Source: an uncultured Methanosarcinales archaeon
Lineage (GTDB): Archaea; Nanobdellota; Nanobdellia; Woesearchaeales; BS150m-G63
NCBI GenBank assembly: GCA_964630685.1
Contig: CAZVVW010000001.1
Span: forward strand, 30,236-94,235
DNA length: 64,000 nucleotides
Direction: 5' to 3'
Positions within the stretch are counted from its first letter, which is position 1. Every line of letters begins with the position of its first letter. A program made the position numbers and the translations under genes. Under the pieces are notes generated by a model that saw only the letters and a program-made list of their open reading frames with translations, searched no databases and was not told the origin of the DNA. Below are positions 5,195 through 12,657 of the stretch, in pieces.

Positions 5195-6664
5195 ATGGTA
5201 GAAAATGATTGGTTAAAGGAATTTGGCACTAAAGAGTATAAAGAAAAGTTAGAAAAAGAACAGCTCGAAAGGTGGGAAATCCAGGGTTTTTATGAAGATT
5301 TGTTTGATAGTGTGGATTTGAGAGATCTTTTTATAGGTACAAAACTTAAACATCATGATTTAACTCTTAATTCTATTGCAAATAAAAAAAATATAAGTGT
5401 TTTAACTGAAAATAATCTTTTAGATACTAAAGAAGGTTCATATATTTTGAAGCAGGGAAAATCCTTACTTGCTACACATAAATTAGTGGATCCATTATAT
5501 CCAGTGGGATATGATCTAACTGAATTTTCTCACAATGTAGATGTTGTTGGAGGGATTTCTGGTAGTGTTTCTGTTGATATTTCTAATAAATTAAATGATT
5601 TTGGATATAAATCTGAAGGAATGTTAGATATAGAGTTTTTTGAAAGAACTCAATTTTTAGAGAAGTTAGAAGAAGTTGTTAAAATAAAAGAAGGCCAAAA
5701 TTATGATTTAAGTGGATTGAAAAAAGAACTGGGTAATGAATTATTTGATGATTCTGAAAAGATTCATTTGAAATATGTTGTTGCTTCTGATAAAAGGGAT
5801 AGGAAAGCTGAGCCTATGTTTATTCCGGCTTATGTGGGGATTGGAACTAATAGGCCATATACTTTTGGAAGAAAAGGCGCTTCACATGATCGATTTTATA
5901 GATTTGATTTGGGGAGTGGTTATATTTCTCAGTGTGATGTGGGGTTGAAAAATATCGGTAAGAGCATGGATAAATTTATTATTGATAGATTTTCAAATAT
6001 GGCTATAGATGAACTTGAAGCAATGCTTGAAAACTTTGTTGGAAAAAAGAATGCTGTTGTTTTTGCTAAAAAGATGAAAAGAAAGCCAAAGAAAACTTTA
6101 GATGATGTTTTTTCTAATTATAGCAATTATAGCACAATTTATGGTGGGGAGTACGATGGAGACCCACTTTATATTTTAAGAAAATTAGCCCTTGTTAAAG
6201 ATAAAGGAAATAATTATTTTATTGATGTTAAGAAAAAAGAATCTTTCTTTAAAGTTAGAGATTATTTGGGTGAATTTTTTAAGTGTAAAAATTTTGGTGT
6301 TGAAGGATTTAGGGGTGATGGAGATATTGCTAAAAAATTAAGTGAGTGTTTTTATGAATTTCCTTATTATTTTGCTAGTGAATTTGATTCAATGAAGTTT
6401 GTGGATAAATATCCTAAGATAGTTGAAAAGGTTCCCATTACTCTTTTTAGTGGGGCAGAACATGTTTTTGGAGCTAATAAAAAAATGTCTGTTCAGGATG
6501 CTTTAGCAATCCAATCAGAAGATTATATTGAGAGATTGAAGTATGGTAGTTTTATTGCTGCGACATATCTTAATACTGGCTTTTTAGATTCAATTAAAAA
6601 ACATTTATGGAATGAGAAAGTGAATAAGACTGCAGTGGATTATGAGAATTTTTTTAAGGAATAA
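5195..6664 (+). CDS. Hypothetical protein (489 aa), no recognisable domain
   Basis: Long ORF with coding-like composition; divergent from the methylthiotransferase gene. Confidence 0.4.
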   Translation: MVENDWLKEFGTKEYKEKLEKEQLERWEIQGFYEDLFDSVDLRDLFIGTKLKHHDLTLNSIANKKNISVLTENNLLDTKEGSYILKQGKSLLATHKLVDPLYPVGYDLTEFSHNVDVVGGISGSVSVDISNKLNDFGYKSEGMLDIEFFERTQFLEKLEEVVKIKEGQNYDLSGLKKELGNELFDDSEKIHLKYVVASDKRDRKAEPMFIPAYVGIGTNRPYTFGRKGASHDRFYRFDLGSGYISQCDVGLKNIGKSMDKFIIDRFSNMAIDELEAMLENFVGKKNAVVFAKKMKRKPKKTLDDVFSNYSNYSTIYGGEYDGDPLYILRKLALVKDKGNNYFIDVKKKESFFKVRDYLGEFFKCKNFGVEGFRGDGDIAKKLSECFYEFPYYFASEFDSMKFVDKYPKIVEKVPITLFSGAEHVFGANKKMSVQDALAIQSEDYIERLKYGSFIAATYLNTGFLDSIKKHLWNEKVNKTAVDYENFFKE

Positions 6665-6939: not shown

Positions 6940-9759
6940 ATGAAAAAATTATTTTTGTTATTATTAGTTTTCTTATTAGTACCTTTAGCACATGCTCTTA
7001 ATGTAACTCATTCTGGAAGTTTTACTGCTGGAGAAAGTCTAAATATTACAGTAGACATAGAAGATGATAGTTACACTGGCGATGTATATTGGAACACTAC
7101 TACAGATTCTGATTTGACATGGAGTTTAGTCAATGGTAGCGGAACATTTAATGCTGCTGGAATGAATTATACTTTTGATGTCAATGACTCTGGTGTTGTT
7201 ATTTTAGGTCTTTCAAGCAATGTTGCTGAAGAATTTGACCTTACTGTTAAGAACAGCACTGAGATAAATGTTACAGGTATCACTGTTAATCCTGCTGATG
7301 CAACAGCATTTTTTGTTGAGCATGAAGGGGAAGGGGTTGCAGGATCACCAATAGATATTAACTTATTGGCAAAAGATCAATATGGAAATGTTGCTAATTA
7401 TACTGGATATGCTTTATTGACTACAACTGTAGCTGATTTTGATACACTCACATGGTTAGAAGGATCTGCTTGGAATGGTCCTGGTGTCTGGAAGTATGAT
7501 TTTTCAGGAAATGGTAATGTAACGATTAATTTGATCAACACCAAAGTAGAAAGTATCACAATTACTGCAGATAATGCATTTTTAGAAGGAGATACTTCTG
7601 ATGCATTAGTTATTTCTGCATCCGATATGGATTACTTTGCTGTGATTCACGAAGGTTATGGAACTGTTGGAAGTACAGAAACAGTTACTGTTACTGCACA
7701 AGATCAGTACAATAACACTGTTTTAGATTATATTGGTGATTACACAATCACAACTACTGCAACTTATGCAGATAATCTAACATGGAATCCAATAGCGCCT
7801 TATGTATTTACTGCAAGTGATAATGGTGTTACTACAATGACTGTTAGTTCAAGTGTAGCACAAGATTTTACAATCACTGCTACAGATATTGATGGTAATA
7901 CAGGAACTTCAGAAACATTGAGTTTTGCAACCCCAACAATCAGTGCATCACCCAATTCAGGAGATATAGAAGATACAATCACTGTTACTGGAAGCGGATT
8001 TGGCCCTACTGCTAGTGTAGATGTTAAATTAGACGGAACAACGGTTAATTCAACAACTACTGATGCAGATGGTGAATTAAGTGCAATTTTTGTTGTACCA
8101 CAAATTGCTAACGGAACATACAATATTACAGCAGGAATAGCAAACTTTGAGTTTGATGTAAATCCAACTTATGTTGGTTTTGAAGCAACAGAATCTACAA
8201 CTGCTTTAATTGTTAATCCAATTGCTGGCTCAACAGGAACAACAACTTTTGTTGTTAGTGCTTTAGGTAATATGTTAGTGAATGTTACTAGTATAACAGC
8301 AACTGAATTAACAAATGATGGAACTTACACCATTAGCAATGTTTCATTTAGCCCAAGCGCATTTGAAGTTGAATGGGATGGAAGTCAAAAAGTTGATGCG
8401 ATTATTACTTTAGAAGGAGAACCTGTTGAAGGAACTTATGAAGGAGAAATAATTGTAGTGGATAGTACAGGTGGTTTTGCTGAAGTGCCATTATCAGTTG
8501 AACTTACAACTGGTGTTTATGGGTTAGCTGTTGCTGATACTTTGAGCATTAGCGGAAACGATGAAGATACTACTAAAACTGCAACATTAACTTTAACTAA
8601 CAATGGAACACTTGATTTAAGCGGAATAGCTTTAACTTATGCCTCAAGTGATTCAAGCAATGGGAAAGTTAGTTTCAGCGCAACAGATGCTTTAGCAGCA
8701 GGCGCTTCACAAAGTGTGACTGTTACTGCAAATATAACTAATTTAGATGTTGGAACTTATTCAGGAACAATTACTGTAAGTACTACTGAAGGAGTCGGCG
8801 ATACTGTTGCTGTAACTATAATTGTTACAGAAGCACCTCTTGAACTTTTAGTTATTTGGGATGTTGATAGTAATGAAGAAAACAATCTAGATGATGATGA
8901 AGAACTTAATTCAATAAGCCCTGGAGAAACCCTTACTTTAGATGTTACTGTTAAGAATAAAGACAATACAGACATGGAAGATGTTGTTGTTATTGTAACT
9001 ATAAGAGATATTGATGATGGAGATGACTTGGAAGCTGAATATGATATTGGAGATATTAATGATGGAGATACTGAAGAAGCATCTTTTAGTTTTGATATTC
9101 CCTGGGAATTAGACAGCGCAAGTTATGATTTAGATATTGAAATCGAAGGCGAAGATGAAGATGGAGAAGAATATACTGATGAATGGACAATTATATTAGA
9201 TGTTGAAAAAGCTACACATGATGTTGCTGTATCTGATGCAGATTTAGGATCAAGTATTCTTAAATGTGTTAGAAGTACATCTTTAATGATTGACATTACA
9301 AACATTGGTGAAAGGGACGAAAATGATATTGTGTTATCTGTTGAAAGTTCAGAATTAGGAATTTCTTTTTTAAAGAAAGATATTGATCTGGATGAAGCAG
9401 AAACATATTCAGAAACAATACCCATTTCATTAAGTGACAGCTTTTCAGCAGGAACTTATGGAATAACAATAAAAACATATTATGACGAAGATGAATATGA
9501 TGACAATGACATGACAGATTATAATGTTGTTAATTTAGTTGTTGAAGATTGTGTTACCACAACTCCTACAACACCAACGACTCCCACAACACCACCAGCA
9601 CCAACTCCAACTGGAGCTGCTGGAGCTGATATACCAACTTCATCTGAAGGATTTTCAGATTCTATTGGTTATGCAGTTACTTTAGTGTTAGCTAATTTAG
9701 TGTTGTTAGTGATTATAATCTTCGTACTTGTGAAGATATTCACGCCAAGAAAGCCTTAA
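6940..9759 (+). CDS. Large secreted cell-surface protein (939 aa): Sec signal peptide, Thr/Asn-rich Ig-like region, acidic D/E-rich region, TTPTTPTTPTTPPAPTP linker, C-terminal TM anchor
   Basis: N-terminal MKKLFLLLLVFLLVPLAHA; C-terminal ...VTLVLANLVLLVIIIFVLVKIFTPRKP; putative SD agggggt upstream. Confidence 0.6.
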   Translation: MKKLFLLLLVFLLVPLAHALNVTHSGSFTAGESLNITVDIEDDSYTGDVYWNTTTDSDLTWSLVNGSGTFNAAGMNYTFDVNDSGVVILGLSSNVAEEFDLTVKNSTEINVTGITVNPADATAFFVEHEGEGVAGSPIDINLLAKDQYGNVANYTGYALLTTTVADFDTLTWLEGSAWNGPGVWKYDFSGNGNVTINLINTKVESITITADNAFLEGDTSDALVISASDMDYFAVIHEGYGTVGSTETVTVTAQDQYNNTVLDYIGDYTITTTATYADNLTWNPIAPYVFTASDNGVTTMTVSSSVAQDFTITATDIDGNTGTSETLSFATPTISASPNSGDIEDTITVTGSGFGPTASVDVKLDGTTVNSTTTDADGELSAIFVVPQIANGTYNITAGIANFEFDVNPTYVGFEATESTTALIVNPIAGSTGTTTFVVSALGNMLVNVTSITATELTNDGTYTISNVSFSPSAFEVEWDGSQKVDAIITLEGEPVEGTYEGEIIVVDSTGGFAEVPLSVELTTGVYGLAVADTLSISGNDEDTTKTATLTLTNNGTLDLSGIALTYASSDSSNGKVSFSATDALAAGASQSVTVTANITNLDVGTYSGTITVSTTEGVGDTVAVTIIVTEAPLELLVIWDVDSNEENNLDDDEELNSISPGETLTLDVTVKNKDNTDMEDVVVIVTIRDIDDGDDLEAEYDIGDINDGDTEEASFSFDIPWELDSASYDLDIEIEGEDEDGEEYTDEWTIILDVEKATHDVAVSDADLGSSILKCVRSTSLMIDITNIGERDENDIVLSVESSELGISFLKKDIDLDEAETYSETIPISLSDSFSAGTYGITIKTYYDEDEYDDNDMTDYNVVNLVVEDCVTTTPTTPTTPTTPPAPTPTGAAGADIPTSSEGFSDSIGYAVTLVLANLVLLVIIIFVLVKIFTPRKP

Positions 9760-9801: not shown

Positions 9802-10396
9802 TTAATCTTCTAAATGTTTATTGCAATTAAACACTTTTACATTGTGTTTTCTATCATCACTAATTTCTAGAATAGTCATTGATGTATTTTTATGAATATA
9901 TTTTAGATAATTTTTTTCTGGCTCGTTATGTAGGGCCATTAATAAACATCTTACAGGTCCTCCATGAGTTACTATTAACACAGTTTTACCAATATGTTTA
10001 TCAATTAATTTATTATAGAATTTCATTGTTCTTTGTTGAACTTCTGACATTGACTCTCCACCCTCTGGTTTAAAATCATTGTAAGGCTTTTCTGTTTTCA
10101 TTATAGCTTTATGAAGAACATCTCCGGAGCCTCCCTCATAGATTCCTTTGTTTTGTTCTCTTAATTCTTCTGTTAGAATCAGTTTTGTTTCTGGGTGAAA
10201 TTTTAATATTGCTTCTGCTGTGTGTTTTGCTCTTGTTAGATCGCTAGAATAAGCAAACTTTTTCATCTTTTAATCTGTCTACTATTTTTTTTATCTGTTC
10301 TCTTCCTTCATCAGAAAGAGAAGTATCTAAATGGCCTTGAGTAATCTTTTTTTTATTTTCAGCTGTTTGCCCATGTCTAATAATTATTAATTTCAT
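9802..10396 (-). pseudogene. Histidine phosphatase superfamily (phosphoglycerate mutase/CobC-like) gene split by a frameshift in an A5 run (plus-strand T5 at 10259-10263)
   Basis: N-terminal piece MKLIIIRHGQTAENKK...GHLDTSLSDEGREQ (RHG catalytic motif) starts at 10396 and stops prematurely. The downstream piece from ATG 10266 continues FAYSSDLTRAKHTAEA...LIVTHGGPVR in another frame. Removing one A restores a ~197 aa phosphatase. Confidence 0.7.
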
Positions 10397-10526
10397 AAAT
10401 GAGTTAGAATCTAAGTTATTAATAAATTTTTTGGGTATATTTCGGAAGATATTTGGATAATAAGAGTTATATCACTGGACATTCTCGCGTAAACTTAATA
10501 AGAGTATAAATCATATTTAACTTAAA

Positions 10527-11375
10527 ATGAATAAAAATAATGCTTTGATTGTATTTCAAGGAAAAAAAGTTAGAAGAATATGGTTTAATGATGAATAGTG
10601 GTTTGTTATAAAAAGATATAGTTTTAGTACTTACAGATTCTAAAGATCCTTCTCAATATTTAAAGAGAATTAGAAGCAGAGACGATGCTTTGAATCAAGC
10701 TTTTAAAGAGGGGGGGTACAATTTGTACCCCCCCTTGGTTTGGAGTTTAAAACTTCTAGAGGGTATCAAATGCTCCAATGTTGGAATACTAAAGGAATAT
10801 TTAGATTAATCCAATCAATCCCTTCTAAACGCGCTGAACCTTTCAAACAATGGTTAGCAAAAGTAGGATACGAAAGAATAAAAGAAATTGAGAATCCTGA
10901 ATTAGCTCAGAAAAGAATGAAAGAAATTTATAAAGCAAAAGGGTATTCTGATAACTGGATTGAAAAAAGAGTTAGAGGAATAGCCATAAGGAATGAATTG
11001 ACAGATGAGTGGAAAAATAGGGGAGTTCAAAATCAAATTGCTTTTGATATACTTACCAATGAAATTACTAAAGCTACTTTTGGTAAGAATGTTGAGGAAT
11101 ATAAAAAATATAAAAGTCTAGATAAACAAAATTTAAGAGACCATATGGATGATATAGAACTAATTCTTACTATGTTGGGTGAAGCAACAACTACAAGGCT
11201 CACTCGTGAAAGAGACTCTAAAAAATTTCCTAAGTTAAAAAAAGATGCAAAAGATGGTGGAGACATCGCAGGTAATACAAGAAAAAATATAGAAAAAAAA
11301 TTAAAAAAGAAAGTAGTGTTAAAAGAAAATTATATCAAAACTTTTGAAAAGAAAAAGAAATTAGACAATCAATAA
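10527..11375 (+). pseudogene. DinD/Bro-N-type (DNA-damage-inducible protein D-like) gene disrupted by an in-frame TAG at a conserved Trp position plus two compensating frameshifts
   Basis: MNKNNALIVFQGKKVRRIWFNDE-TAG-WF | +1 at A5 (10610-10614) | KDIVLVLTDSKDPSQYLKRIRSRDDALNQAFKEGGYNLYPPLVWSLK | shift back near 10749-10752 | TSRGYQMLQCWNTKGIFRLIQSIPSKRAEPFKQWLAKVGYERI...NLRDHMDDIELILTMLGEATTT. The whole reading matches the DinD family from memory. Confidence 0.65.
10710..10734. repeat. Perfect hairpin palindrome GGGGGGGTACA-ATT-TGTACCCCCCC (11-bp arms, G7/C7) inside the disrupted DinD-like gene
   Basis: Read directly; G7/C7 runs are extreme for this AT-rich genome. Confidence 0.8.
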
Positions 11376-11376
11376 A

Positions 11377-12657
11377 TTATTTTCTTTTAAAATATCCCCA
11401 TTTATCAATTGCTTTAGCTAACTCTGGATGGGTTTTAGAATATTTTTTTATTGTTTTCTTTTTCATTACTGCTTCAACTGATTGTCTTATTGCTTTAGCT
11501 CCTGCTCTTGTGCCGTCTGGATGTCCGTGACATCCTCCACCATATTGCGCAATAATGTTTTTACCCATTATTTTCATCAGTGGTTCTGTGTGCCCTGGAT
11601 GTAATCCTCCACTACAGACAGCAAACACTGGTTTAATGTATCGCCAATCCTGTTCAAGAACGTGTTGTTTTGTTTTTTTATCAATGAATTTGTCCTCAAT
11701 TTCTTCTTCAATCATTCTCACTTCTCTTGCAGCGCCTTCCATTTTTCCAACTGCAGTTCCAATGTGAAGCTGATCCACACCAATTAGTCTGGCTATTTTG
11801 GCTATTGCAAGCATAGATATTCCGTGTTTATGATATCTGGTTATTGCTGCGTGTCCTGCTCTGTGTGCATGGATTACTAAACCTAAGTTTGCTTGTCTTA
11901 ATGTTTGAAGTACACTAAAACCAGCTGTTAAGATGTCAATCATCACATATTCTCCACCATGAGCTTTTACAAATTTAGCTCTTTTGAGCATTTCATTTGT
12001 TTCTGCTGTAATATTTGGCATATATATTTTTTTCTCTCCTGTTTCTATTTCAGCCATATCTCTTAGTTTGAGTGTTTGTTTGATTCTTTCGTAGAAATTA
12101 TTGAAACTCATAGAAGTTAGGTTTTCATCATCTTTAACAATATCTAATCCCCCCATCCAAGATTCATAAGCAACTTTTGCGTGTTGTTTTTCATGGAGAC
12201 CGAGTTTTGGTTTTACGATTGTGCCAACCAAAGGTCTTTCTTTTACTTTTAGAAGTTTTCTTATCCCTGCGATTCCGAATTTTGGACCTTTAAAGCTGTC
12301 AATAATATCTTTTGGAAAAGAAATATCTTGCAATCTTAGGTTTTTGATTAATTTCATCCCATAAATATTTCCAGCAATACTTGAAAGAATTTGGGGCATA
12401 TTCCCTTGTTCAAATAAATCTTGAGGGTATGCAATTTTGATTGTTTTGGTTGCTTTATTTATAGAGAAAACACTAGGTTTTAATTTTTCTGCTATCTCTT
12501 TATTCATTGTAGAAAGTTCTGTCCAAGTACCAATAGAACTTTCACCAGCTATGTTTTCTGCTGCTTTTTCTAGAGAAATTCGATTAGGCTCAACATAAAA
12601 TTCACAGACAAGATCTTTTTTGTTTGGGAGATATTTTAGGTTTATGTAGTTAAGCAA
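11377..12657 (-). CDS. rbcL: Ribulose-1,5-bisphosphate carboxylase/oxygenase large subunit, form III (archaeal type)
   Basis: GGLDIVKDDENL, HAHRAGHAA, GGGCHGHPDG and the N-terminal LNYINLKYLPNKKDLVCEFYVEP (cf. M. jannaschii MDYINLNYRP). The probable start is TTG at 12657; the ORF track's ATG at 12876 adds a low-complexity 73-aa extension overlapping the upstream gene. Confidence 0.85.
   Translation of the reverse strand: MLNYINLKYLPNKKDLVCEFYVEPNRISLEKAAENIAGESSIGTWTELSTMNKEIAEKLKPSVFSINKATKTIKIAYPQDLFEQGNMPQILSSIAGNIYGMKLIKNLRLQDISFPKDIIDSFKGPKFGIAGIRKLLKVKERPLVGTIVKPKLGLHEKQHAKVAYESWMGGLDIVKDDENLTSMSFNNFYERIKQTLKLRDMAEIETGEKKIYMPNITAETNEMLKRAKFVKAHGGEYVMIDILTAGFSVLQTLRQANLGLVIHAHRAGHAAITRYHKHGISMLAIAKIARLIGVDQLHIGTAVGKMEGAAREVRMIEEEIEDKFIDKKTKQHVLEQDWRYIKPVFAVCSGGLHPGHTEPLMKIMGKNIIAQYGGGCHGHPDGTRAGAKAIRQSVEAVMKKKTIKKYSKTHPELAKAIDKWGYFKRK

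What the first reader, a model, noticed from the sequence alone, without database searches (positions are those of the whole stretch)
10527..11375. DinD/Bro-N-like gene broken three ways: TAG at a conserved Trp codon, and +1 and compensating shifts at homopolymers
The reading MNKNNALIVFQGKKVRRIWFNDE[TAG]WF…KDIVLVLTDSKDP…TSRGYQML…IFRLIQSIPSKRAEPFKQWLAKVGYERIKEIENPELAQ…NLRDHMDDIELILTMLGEATTTR reproduces the DinD-type family end to end, but only by switching frames twice. The first switch is at the A5 run 10610-10614. The switch back is around the A4 run at 10749-10752. A TAG stands where family members have Trp (…NDEWWFS…). It may be a recently decayed stress or phage-derived gene. The TAG is unlikely to be a sense codon: TAG is not used as a stop elsewhere in the window, but no other in-frame TAG is seen in conserved genes either.
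Basis: partly seen in the sequence, partly recalled or inferred. Interest (0 to 1): 0.55.

Follow-up and report, generated by a model that had tools for sequence, protein, structure and literature searches.

The report
Dead defence-island gene with conserved hairpin
This is a real, recently inactivated copy of a widespread Bro-N/"DinD-like" defence-island gene in a small AT-rich archaeon (an ordinary pseudogene), but its third lesion sits at the foot of a GC-rich hairpin that turns out to be conserved inside the coding sequence of this gene family in both bacteria and archaea, with a comparable hairpin at the same relative position in E. coli dinD.

Summary
The broken gene is real. Repaired, it is a full-length member of the Bro-N family that PADLOC calls PDC-S13 (E 7e-102). 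TAG 10596-98 replaces a Trp that 137 of 138 homologues keep, and the A5 run 10610-14 carries one extra A. The return to frame is not at the A4 run 10749-52. It is a 2-nt insertion (10708-09) abutting a perfect 13+13-nt palindrome (10709-10735). Ten contigs, from at least nine samples and built by JGI, ENA and Logan, are base-identical here, so assembly error is very unlikely. TAG is a normal stop in this genome: 4 of 41 long ORFs end in it, including the RNR gene, and none has it internally. Apart from W24, no conserved residue has changed, so the decay is recent. The divergent neighbour, a histidine phosphatase gene, is also frameshifted at an A5 run. Unexpectedly, the palindrome is family-wide. 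A 14-bp stem sits at the same codons in about 136 homologues from both domains. It shows amino-acid-changing compensatory pairs, strong synonymous-site bias, and the same nucleotide core read in two reading frames. E. coli dinD has a comparable hairpin at the same relative position. The function of the hairpin is unknown.

The parts
10527..10595 (+). Codons 1-23 of the former gene (MNKNNALIVFQGKKVRRIWFNDE), in the original frame
   Evidence: Matches family HMM positions 1-23 and alignment A1.
10596..10598 (+). Nonsense codon TAG replacing Trp-24 (TGG to TAG, G>A at 10597)
   Evidence: 137 of 138 homologues have W at this column. TAG is a working stop in this genome.
10610..10614 (+). A5 run holding one extra A (+1 frameshift between Lys-29 and Asp-30)
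   Evidence: Three-frame translation. The family reads V-I-K-D. The HMM match jumps to the other frame here.
10615..10707 (+). Codons 30-60 (DIVLVLTDSKDPSQYLKRIRSRDDALNQAFK), readable only in the shifted frame
   Evidence: hmmsearch places HMM positions 26-59 at nt 10603-10704, i-E 1.3e-9. The segment is 28/32 identical to P0003.
10708..10709 (+). Two extra bases (GA, equivalently an AG tandem duplication) that bring the 3' part back into the frame of the ATG
   Evidence: All homologues go straight from AAA/CAA/GAA to GGG. The original frame matches the family from 10710 onward.
10709..10735 (.). Perfect palindrome AGGGGGGGTACAA-T-TTGTACCCCCCCT (13-nt arms, 1-nt loop), encoding GGVQFVPP. It is the local copy of a hairpin conserved across the family.
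   Evidence: the repeat finder I12 shows 100% complementarity, and it is the only long GC-rich perfect palindrome in 64 kb. Its RNA MFE is -25.3 kcal/mol, against -9.1 +/- 2.8 for 5000 synonymous recodings, none of which reaches it. Its DNA MFE is -14.2 kcal/mol, z -4.4. Family covariation is shown.
10710..11375 (+). Codons 61-281 plus TAA, undamaged and in the original frame
   Evidence: Matches family HMM positions 58-275 without a stop or shift. All seven A-runs of 6-8 nt are in frame.
10770..11375 (+). The 201-aa ORF (from ATG 10770) that public gene callers report for this locus (P0004)
   Evidence: Exact protein P0004 is found on 16 contigs. Pfam sees only the tail of Bro-N in it, at 19 bits, below the cut-off.
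9802..10396 (-). Divergently transcribed neighbour: a histidine phosphatase gene split by one extra base in the run at 10259-10263 (GAAAAAG on the coding strand)
   Evidence: Two ORFs of 50 and 154 aa both hit PF00300. The repaired protein gives one contiguous PF00300 match over residues 3-188, E 1.5e-48. The sequence is identical in the public contigs.

Best explanation
The interval is a recently pseudogenised, horizontally acquired copy of a single-gene defence-island family. The family has a Bro-N N-terminal domain plus a helical C-terminal domain, is PADLOC candidate PDC-S13, and has a predicted fold like DdrC. The host is an AT-rich DPANN-type archaeon.

Three genuine mutations, fixed in the population, destroy the first 60 or so codons:
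- a G>A transition that turns Trp-24 into TAG;
- one extra A in an A-run (A4 to A5);
- a 2-bp duplication at the 5' foot of a GC-rich palindrome.

TAG is an ordinary stop here. The frame between the indels contains stops when read from the ATG, so no full-length protein can be made. The 3' two-thirds is still an open frame, most simply because the decay is very young.

Shown: the lesions, their reproducibility, the stop-codon usage, the family membership and the absence of other damage.

Inferred: loss of function, slippage as the mutational mechanism of the two indels, horizontal acquisition, and the DNA-binding and defence role of the intact family.

The palindrome at the third lesion is not an accident of this genome. 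It is a hairpin conserved within the coding sequence of the whole family, and its arms have undergone indels before in the family's history.
For: Identity and lesions.

Real rather than artefact: ten contigs from at least nine samples, assembled by JGI, ENA and Logan, show no differences across 10034-11403, while SNPs occur at 8065, 9402 and 11404 in some contigs.

Standard code: 29 TAA, 8 TGA and 4 TAG stops in ORFs of at least 150 aa. In-frame TAGs lie only upstream of the likely start (codon index 36 or lower) or at the stop. RNR, radical-SAM and DUF1189 genes end in TAG.

No genome-wide recoding: the proteasome subunit, aCPSF1, RuBisCO, RNR and MetRS genes, and ORFs of 1000-2200 codons, are intact despite abundant A-runs.

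Recent decay: 0 of 78 other conserved columns are altered, while intact homologues average 0.97 deviations.

Lineage-specific gene: the nearest RuBisCO relatives (78% identity) have neither the Bro-N nor the His_Phos gene beside RuBisCO.

Defence-island family: one homologue sits between cas12a and cas4-cas1-cas2, and another lies beside RhuM, YhcG, DUF3800, RecQ and ORF6N genes.

Fold: the AF2 model has pLDDT 86.8, and its best PDB matches are DdrC chains at E 2e-6.
Against: All three lesions lie in the first 22% of the gene. If placement were uniform this would have a probability of about 0.01 (my arithmetic). Seven longer, more slippage-prone A-runs (A6-A8) in the 3' part are untouched. Three disabling hits alongside no other change at 78 conserved columns is an odd ratio for neutral decay.

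This could mean that the 3' ORF is still under selection, or that the lesions arose in one clustered event. Neither could be tested. No read pile-ups, transcript data or protein data were available. No close relative (above 70% identity) of the gene was found to date the lesions.
Confidence: 0.8

Rival explanations
1. The locus is now a functional N-terminally truncated gene. The intact 201-211-codon 3' ORF (TTG 10740 or ATG 10770 to 11375) is expressed from an internal start and kept by selection. It might act as a helical C-terminal domain alone, for example as a dominant-negative or regulatory fragment. This would be loosely analogous to the short in-frame 'genes within genes' of the Rpn defence nucleases (PMC10400941).
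For: All three lesions lie upstream of 10710, and none falls in the following 666 nt despite seven A6-A8 runs. Every conserved residue of the 3' part is retained. The AF2 model places an essentially all-helical region from about residue 90 to residue 261, and this region would be retained.
Against: The truncated product would start inside strand beta-4 of the Bro-N domain and lack almost all of that domain. Pfam sees only 19 bits of Bro-N in it, below the 25.6-bit cut-off. Naturally short family members were not seen among the best 120 hits, apart from this locus itself. Recent inactivation alone also explains the intact ORF. There are no expression data.
Confidence: 0.13
2. The lesions are sequencing or assembly errors, and the gene is intact in the organism.
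For: Two of the three lesions touch homopolymers (A5, and next to G7), which are error-prone on some platforms. The neighbouring gene is also broken at an A5 run.
Against: Ten contigs, assembled separately by three pipelines from at least nine samples, agree at every base of the gene. They differ from each other at three other positions, so they are not copies of one assembly. A TGG to TAG substitution is not a homopolymer error. The many longer A-runs in 1000-2200-codon ORFs of the same window are all in frame.
Confidence: 0.03
3. A full-length protein is still made by recoding, through read-through or reassignment of TAG plus programmed +1 and -1 ribosomal frameshifts or transcriptional slippage.
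For: Both +1 sites in the two neighbouring genes have the form AAA-AG, on which a P-site tRNA-Lys could re-pair after a +1 slip. A very stable hairpin starts right after the second shift site. The two indels sum to +3.
Against: TAG terminates conserved genes and is never internal. None of about 145 intact homologues needs a frameshift. The G-run that would have to slip is itself part of the stem, not 5-9 nt upstream of it. AGA, the codon to be skipped, is not obviously a rare codon in this AT-rich genome. That point is an inference, because Arg codon usage was not tabulated. A5 runs are everywhere in intact genes of the window. Three independent recoding events within 115 nt would be without precedent.
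Confidence: 0.02
4. This rival concerns the hairpin only. The intragenic palindrome has no function. It persists because the peptide it encodes is an unconstrained surface loop, and because template switching between the arms (quasi-palindrome correction) keeps re-perfecting it. That process would produce apparent compensatory changes without selection.
For: The encoded segment is largely coil in the AF2 model, residues 64-71 of P0003, ahead of strand 72-78. It is the most variable part of an otherwise very conserved protein. The stems contain very few G:T pairs and are equally stable on both strands, as expected for a DNA-level process.
Against: A hairpin is kept at the same codons in about 136 homologues from many bacterial and archaeal phyla, in two reading registers, with stems of quite different sequence. 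The much more distant DinD proper of E. coli and relatives also has one at the same relative position. The hairpin uses rare codons in this 32% GC genome: GGG is 14% of Gly codons and CCC is 7% of Pro codons. The apical CAA-N-TTG is nearly invariant whichever frame reads it. A purely mutational process would not be expected to hold position and length (14 bp) this tightly.
Confidence: 0.2

Closest known systems
PADLOC PDC-S13 (Bro-N domain-containing proteins, annotated 'phage antirepressor' or 'DNA-damage-inducible protein D' in Woesearchaeota, Nanoarchaeota, CPR and many bacterial MAGs)
   Same: It matches phrog_15286 at E 1e-75. It is 60-70% identical to hundreds of intact 275-295-aa proteins. 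It carries the family's intragenic hairpin.
   Different: This copy has a nonsense codon and two frameshifts in its first 61 codons. It lies between housekeeping genes (His phosphatase, RuBisCO) rather than in a defence island. Homologues examined do sit in defence islands.
E. coli DinD (b3645, SOS-inducible; I recall reports that it inhibits RecA)
   Same: The length is similar. The C-terminal region is weakly homologous: family HMM positions 150-240 align with DinD residues 145-237, E 1e-6. JGI names family members DinD. A strong intragenic hairpin lies at the same relative position, with the deepest MFE window centred on codons 59-66 and the stem-loop spanning about codons 56-70. Its MFE is -24 kcal/mol, and 3 of 3000 synonymous recodings are as stable.
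   Different: The window gene fails the NCBIfam DinD equivalog: 18.3 bits against a cut-off of 242. The N-terminal halves are not alignable by HMM. The stem sequences are unrelated.
DdrC of Deinococcus radiodurans (homodimer that senses nicks and double-strand breaks; PMC11347143)
   Same: DdrC chains are the only significant PDB fold matches of the family model: 8u0g, 7qvb and 7udi, Foldseek E 2e-6 to 2e-4, probability 1.0. Both have an N-terminal winged-helix-like domain followed by a helical domain. Both DdrC and DinD are DNA-damage-response proteins.
   Different: Sequence identity is 10-12% and TM-scores are only 0.30-0.51, with large rmsd, so the domain arrangement differs. There is no sequence-level hit to any PDB chain. 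DNA-lesion binding by PDC-S13 proteins is untested.
Phase-variable contingency genes with homopolymer tracts (slipped-strand mispairing in restriction-modification and surface genes)
   Same: G7-G9 and C7-C9 tracts lie inside the coding sequence of a defence-type gene. An indel lies right at the tract in this window. One subfamily differs from another by tract-length changes that shift the frame across the loop.
   Different: Tract lengths do not vary among the ten population contigs. Most subfamilies have no homopolymer, only the hairpin. The other two lesions (TAG, A4 to A5) are not readily reversible switches.
Programmed frameshift genes (prfB +1, dnaX -1)
   Same: A stable stem-loop lies close to a shift site.
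   Different: There is no slippery heptamer at the right spacing. No homologue shares the shifts. An in-frame stop lies upstream.

Membership tests
Pfam Bro-N (PF02498) | Score above the gathering threshold for the domain | tested here: met
   The repaired protein scores 40.2 bits against a cut-off of 25.6, over residues 14-112 and profile positions 1-92 of 96. The ORF as it stands (201 aa) scores only 19 bits, below the cut-off.
PADLOC PDC-S13 (candidate single-gene defence system) | Full-length match to the PDC-S13 profile | tested here: met
   E 7.2e-102, 338.5 bits, residues 1-277 against profile positions 1-275 of 286.
PADLOC PDC-S13 (candidate single-gene defence system) | Location in defence islands or next to other defence genes | tested here: not met
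   The window copy lies between His_Phos_1 and RuBisCO genes among housekeeping genes. Homologues do meet the criterion: a Cas12a locus (L171) and an island with RhuM, YhcG, DUF3800, RecQ and ORF6N (L173).
PADLOC PDC-S13 (candidate single-gene defence system) | Protection against phage | not testable with these tools
   No experimental report was found.
DinD equivalog (NCBIfam NF008573) | Score at or above the curated cut-off of the equivalog model | tested here: not met
   18.3 bits against a cut-off of 242, with only residues 154-246 aligned. The family HMM aligns only residues 145-237 of E. coli DinD.
DdrC-like fold | Significant structural match over both domains | tested here: inconclusive
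   Foldseek gives E 2.4e-6 and probability 1.0, but TM-scores of 0.30-0.51 and rmsd of 10-15 A over 219-255 columns. The model has pLDDT 86.8.
Pseudogene | Premature stop or frameshifts relative to intact homologues, with no alternative reading that restores the product | tested here: met
   There is a TAG at W24 and indels of +1 and +2. Read from the ATG, the frame hits TAG and then three further stops between the indels. TAG is a genuine stop in this genome.
Pseudogene | Lesions present in the organism, not only in one assembly | tested here: met
   Ten independently assembled contigs are identical. Raw reads were not available.
Pseudogene | No functional product from the remnant | not testable with these tools
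   The 201-211-codon 3' ORF is intact. There are no expression data.
Stop-codon reassignment (TAG as sense) | TAG absent as terminator and present at conserved sense positions of several genes | tested here: not met
   Four of 41 long ORFs end in TAG, and none has an internal TAG.
Programmed ribosomal frameshift | Shift site and stimulator conserved among homologues, with a slippery motif at the proper spacing from the structure | tested here: not met
   About 145 homologues are read in a single frame. The G-run is inside the stem, not upstream of it.
Conserved cis-acting nucleic-acid structure within a CDS | Base pairing kept by compensatory changes, above shuffled and slid controls | tested here: met
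   87.3% of cells are paired, against 68.3% in shuffles (0 of 500 reach the observed value) and 40-51% when the partner is slid. Thirteen of 14 pairs change on both sides. The covariation score is 0.502 against 0.199. Caveat: the sequences are related, and the alignment was anchored on each sequence's best palindrome centre. That centre falls 11-13 nt upstream of the conserved Leu codon in 138 of 139 sequences.
Conserved cis-acting nucleic-acid structure within a CDS | Stability beyond what the amino-acid sequence dictates | tested here: met
   With synonymous resampling, the family mean is -17.2 against -8.9 kcal/mol, the mean z is -2.9, and 109 of 136 sequences have at most 10 of 200 resamples as stable. 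For the window copy, none of 5000 is as stable. For E. coli dinD, 3 of 3000 are.
Conserved cis-acting nucleic-acid structure within a CDS | A demonstrated function of the structure | not testable with these tools
   No Rfam family reaches its threshold. No literature was found.

The most novel reading that the evidence does not exclude
The palindrome at 10709-10735 is the local copy of a previously undescribed, selected nucleic-acid hairpin. It has a 14-bp stem and a 1-3-nt loop, and it is embedded at a fixed loop-coding position of DinD/Bro-N (PDC-S13) genes throughout Bacteria and Archaea. E. coli dinD has a comparable hairpin at the same relative position. The nucleotide structure is conserved in preference to the peptide: the same core GGGGTACAATTTGTACCCC is read as G-V-Q-F-V-P in one subfamily and as W-G-T-I-C-T-P in another.

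It would be a cis element of these genes. One possibility is a hairpin or cruciform recognised by the encoded DdrC-like, structure-sensing DNA-binding protein (self-regulation). Another is an mRNA stem that controls expression. It is also an indel-prone site that produced both an ancient compensated frameshift and the third lesion seen in this window.
Probability: 0.65. Interest if true: 0.7.

Novelty: new member of a known kind. Interest (0 to 1): 0.42.

Why it matters
As a pseudogene, the locus matters little. It shows that a small DPANN-type genome carries young, population-fixed pseudogenes of an acquired defence-type gene and of its neighbour. It also shows that gene callers report the remnant as a 201-aa 'hypothetical protein'.

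The by-product matters more. A hairpin is maintained inside a protein-coding sequence across both prokaryotic domains, independent of reading frame. If the comparable hairpin in E. coli dinD is homologous, there is a concrete, experimentally tractable handle on two things. One is a very widespread defence-island family of unknown mechanism (PDC-S13). The other is DinD, an SOS gene whose role has stayed unclear since it was identified by the early din-lac fusion screens. The hairpin is also a clean example of overlapping protein and nucleic-acid-structure constraints.

Tried and rejected
1. TAG as a sense codon. Rejected: TAG ends RNR, radical-SAM and DUF1189 genes and is never internal.

2. 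Switch-back at the A4 run 10749-52. Rejected by the family alignment and three-frame HMM mapping.

3. Assembly error. Rejected on ten concordant contigs.

4. Genome-wide slippage or recoding at A-runs. Rejected: neighbouring housekeeping genes and ORFs of 1000-2200 codons are intact.

5. Search for a closer intact allele or orthologue. None was found. The best homologue is about 70% identical. The nearest RuBisCO relatives lack the gene at the syntenic site.

6. Rfam. The only hit is a sub-threshold one to alphaproteobacterial ar15, at 35.8 bits against a cut-off of 40, on the minus strand 10705-10802. It is carried by the hairpin plus TCTTT, and its first stem is poor. I treated it as chance. 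Nothing in the whole window reaches a gathering score, and no tRNA was found.

7. Hairpin as an intrinsic terminator. Rejected: no T-run follows it on either strand in most subfamilies.

8. Hairpin as a repeated operator. The arms are not repeated elsewhere in 134 of 136 loci.

9. Hairpin as a recombination breakpoint between modules. Rejected: the distance matrices left and right of it correlate best exactly there, rho 0.73.

10. RNA versus DNA, judged by strand asymmetry. Inconclusive: sense and antisense folds are equally stable, and 26 versus 28 peptide classes favour each. There are 70 G:T pairs against 42 A:C pairs.

11. PDB sequence search. No hit.

12. Literature on PDC-S13, on Bro-N hairpins and on a dinD stem-loop. 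Nothing was found. The tisAB-dinD antisense paper concerns the 3' end of dinD, not this hairpin.
Full report
**What is in the sequence**

The window is 31.6% GC. From ATG 10527 the reading frame gives MNKNNALIVFQGKKVRRIWFNDE, then TAG (10596-98), then WFVIK. After that it runs into stops. A second frame reads DIVLVLTDSKDPSQYLKRIRSRDDALNQAFK from 10615 to 10707. The first frame is open again from 10707 and reads GGVQFVPPLGLEFKTSRGYQML... to TAA 11375.

A profile built from 138 homologues maps these pieces as follows:
- Positions 1-28 and 58-275 fall in the first frame.
- Positions 26-59 fall in the other frame, at nt 10603-10704 (i-E 1.3e-9).

The lesions are therefore:
- TGG to TAG at codon 24.
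- One extra A in the run 10610-14. The family has GTT ATA AAA GAT.
- Two extra bases, GA 10708-09, between the Lys codon AAA and the G7 run. All homologues go straight from the Lys/Gln/Glu codon to GGG.

That is wrong. The run lies within the in-frame codons TTT AAA ACT (F-K-T), and the 13 residues before it already match the family exactly. The two indels are +1 and +2.

**What the gene is**

Repaired, the protein scores as follows:
- Pfam Bro-N, E 5.5e-10.
- PADLOC candidate defence family PDC-S13, end to end, E 7e-102.
- phrog_15286, E 1e-75.
- More than 8000 database proteins, the best intact ones 65-70% identical and 275-295 aa long. They come from Woesearchaeota, Nanoarchaeota, CPR bacteria and many other phyla.

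It fails the NCBIfam equivalog model for DinD, with 18.3 bits against a cut-off of 242. 'DinD-like' is therefore a nickname, not a membership.

An AlphaFold model of the closest intact homologue has pLDDT 86.8. Its only significant PDB fold matches are DdrC of Deinococcus radiodurans, at E 2e-6 and TM 0.30-0.51. DdrC is a homodimer that senses nicks and double-strand breaks (PMC11347143).

Homologues sit in defence contexts. One lies between cas12a and cas4-cas1-cas2. Another lies beside RhuM, YhcG, DUF3800, RecQ and ORF6N genes.

**Is it real?**

The 201-aa remnant ORF (P0004) is recorded on 16 public contigs. I read ten of them, assembled by JGI, ENA and Logan from at least nine samples. All ten are identical to the window at every base of the gene. 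Three SNPs elsewhere (8065, 9402, 11404) show that they are not copies of one assembly. I could not see reads, but error is very unlikely.

**Is TAG a sense codon?**

No. Of 41 ORFs of at least 150 aa, 29 end in TAA, 8 in TGA and 4 in TAG. Three of the TAG-terminated ORFs are Pfam-supported genes: ribonucleotide reductase, a radical-SAM enzyme and DUF1189. No long ORF contains an internal TAG.

**How old is the damage?**

Among 79 alignment columns that are at least 95% conserved, the repaired protein differs only at W24. Intact homologues average 0.97 deviations. The decay is therefore young, and that alone can explain why the last 221 codons are still open.

Some features are odd for neutral decay:
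- All three lesions lie in the first 22% of the gene.
- Seven A6-A8 runs downstream are untouched.
- A fourth lesion lies only about 350 bp away in the divergently transcribed histidine-phosphatase gene. It is an extra base in GAAAAAG at 10259-63. The repaired protein gives one contiguous PF00300 match, E 1.5e-48.

Other genes within 10 kb on either side are intact. I cannot tell whether this clustering reflects one mutational episode, relaxed selection on a small acquired patch, or continued use of the 3' ORF.

The nearest relatives of the adjacent RuBisCO are 78% identical. They have neither of the two genes at that site, so the patch is lineage-specific.

**The palindrome**

The 2-nt insertion abuts AGGGGGGGTACAA-T-TTGTACCCCCCCT (10709-10735). 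This is the only long perfect GC-rich palindrome in the 64 kb.

It is built from codons that are rare here: GGG is 14% of Gly codons, CCC is 7% of Pro and GTA is 20% of Val. None of 5000 synonymous recodings of the same peptide folds as well, at -25.3 against -9.1 +/- 2.8 kcal/mol. As DNA it folds at -14.2 kcal/mol, z -4.4.

The palindrome is not peculiar to this genome.
- In 139 distinct homologous coding sequences, a 45-nt sliding MFE has a single deep minimum at these codons. The mean is -17 kcal/mol against a background of about -5.
- The palindrome centre lies 12 nt (100 sequences), 11 nt (36) or 13 nt (2) upstream of a conserved Leu codon.
- Pairing is high for 14 positions on each side and then falls to background.
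- On 69 diverse sequences, 87.3% of cells pair. Shuffles give 68.3% (0 of 500 reach the observed value), and sliding the partner gives 40-51%. Thirteen of 14 pairs change on both sides, and the covariation score is 0.502 against 0.199.

Many compensations change amino acids:
- V..V (GTA/TAC), G..V (GGA/GTC) and G..A (GGG/GCC).
- W..T against G..P.
- T..C replaced by D..I in L056 (TTGTACGAT-TTT-ATCGTACAA).

Synonymous resampling gives a family mean z of -2.9.

The same nucleotide core is read in two registers. In the window it is GGG GGG GTA CAA TTT GTA CCC CCC. In L022, L012 and L064 it is TGG GGT ACA ATT TGT ACC CCC. This implies an old frameshift compensated within the G and C runs.

The encoded peptide is largely coil in the model, ahead of a beta-strand.

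E. coli K-12 dinD is homologous only in its C-terminal part. Its deepest fold window is centred on codons 59-66, and the stem-loop spans about codons 56-70. The sequence is GACCAT-T-TCGAGG-AGAT-CCTCGA-T-ATGGTC. Three of 3000 synonymous recodings are as stable. Of the ten DinD-type relatives examined, three keep a stem with compensatory changes and the rest keep only parts of it.

**What the hairpin does is not known**

Several roles are excluded or untested:
- It is not followed by T-runs.
- It is not repeated in the flanks.
- It is not a recombination breakpoint.
- It shows no strand asymmetry and few G:T pairs, which leans slightly towards a DNA-level role.
- No Rfam family reaches its threshold. 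The sub-threshold ar15 hit on the minus strand is carried by the hairpin itself.
- I found no paper describing it.

My working guess is inference only. The hairpin may be a cis element recognised by, or regulating, the encoded structure-sensing DNA-binding protein. A self-perpetuating palindrome in an unconstrained loop is the main rival.

**Verdict**

The finding is a genuine, young, population-fixed pseudogene of a known family, which is ordinary in itself. The conserved intragenic hairpin at its third lesion is the part worth following up.

Noticed in passing
window 9802-10396 (-), run at 10259-10263: The divergently transcribed neighbour, a histidine phosphatase (PF00300) gene, is also frameshifted by one extra base in GAAAAAG. 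The repaired protein gives one contiguous domain match (E 1.5e-48). The lesion is present in all public contigs that cover it.
   Followed up: yes
window 10259-10709: Four disabling lesions in two genes fall within 450 bp around a shared 130-bp divergent intergenic region, while other genes within 10 kb on either side are intact. It may be a clustered mutational episode or a small acquired patch under relaxed selection. This is unexplained.
   Followed up: partly
window 10709-10735; loci L011-L170 at the homologous codons: A hairpin with a 14-bp stem is conserved across the family inside the coding sequence. It shows amino-acid-changing compensatory pairs, a strong synonymous-site signal, and a nearly invariant apical CAA-N-TTG.
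   Followed up: yes
L022, L012, L064, L018 versus window 10705-10736: The same nucleotide core GGGGTACAATTTGTACCCC is translated as W-G-T-I-C-T-P in one subfamily and as G-V-Q-F-V-P in the window's subfamily. The 5' arm is two bases shorter and the 3' arm one base shorter, which implies an ancient compensated frameshift within the hairpin arms.
   Followed up: partly
L176 2926-2979 (E. coli K-12 NC_000913.3 about 3817925-3817978, dinD codons 56-73): E. coli dinD has a stem-loop of -24 kcal/mol at the same relative position as the family hairpin. Only 3 of 3000 synonymous recodings are as stable. DinD-type relatives L181, L185 and L187 keep it with compensatory changes, and others keep it only partly.
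   Followed up: partly
L171 2017-8675: In a Woesearchaeota contig, an intact family member lies between cas12a (Cpf1) and cas4-cas1-cas2, inside a type V-A CRISPR-Cas locus, with a Fic gene downstream.
   Followed up: no
model of P0003: The family's predicted fold matches DdrC of Deinococcus radiodurans (E 2e-6). The DdrC paper's title calls it 'unique', and the text I read reports no close structural relatives. A structural link between DdrC, Bro-N/PDC-S13 proteins and DinD may itself be new.
   Followed up: partly
window 10705-10802 (-): There is a sub-threshold Rfam hit to the alphaproteobacterial sRNA ar15, at 35.8 bits against a cut-off of 40 and E 2e-5 for the 1.2 kb searched. It is driven by the palindrome plus TCTTT reading as a terminator-like hairpin. 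It is probably chance.
   Followed up: partly
family codons 103-112 (window about 10836-10865) and codon 244: There are secondary dips in the family-averaged folding-energy profile, at about -10 kcal/mol against a background of -5. They lie over the AEPFKxWLAKVG motif and near GG at codon 244. I did not examine them for covariation.
   Followed up: no
JGI contig of sample 3300072015 reported (locus coordinates 5491-5709; no DNA held): A 72-aa ORF with a weak Bro-N hit lies just upstream of an intact family member. It may be another decayed Bro-N gene copy. The closely related contig L173 has no gene call there.
   Followed up: no
L076 about 2897 and L163 about 1979: A second copy of the 12-nt hairpin arm (at most one mismatch) lies 270-670 nt upstream of the gene on the opposite strand in two loci only. 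It may belong to an adjacent paralogue.
   Followed up: no
alignment A1: The family looks mosaic. The window's N-terminal 130 residues are closest to P0003, including 28/32 identical residues in the shifted segment. Its C-terminal third resembles P0002 and P0015 rather than P0003.
   Followed up: no
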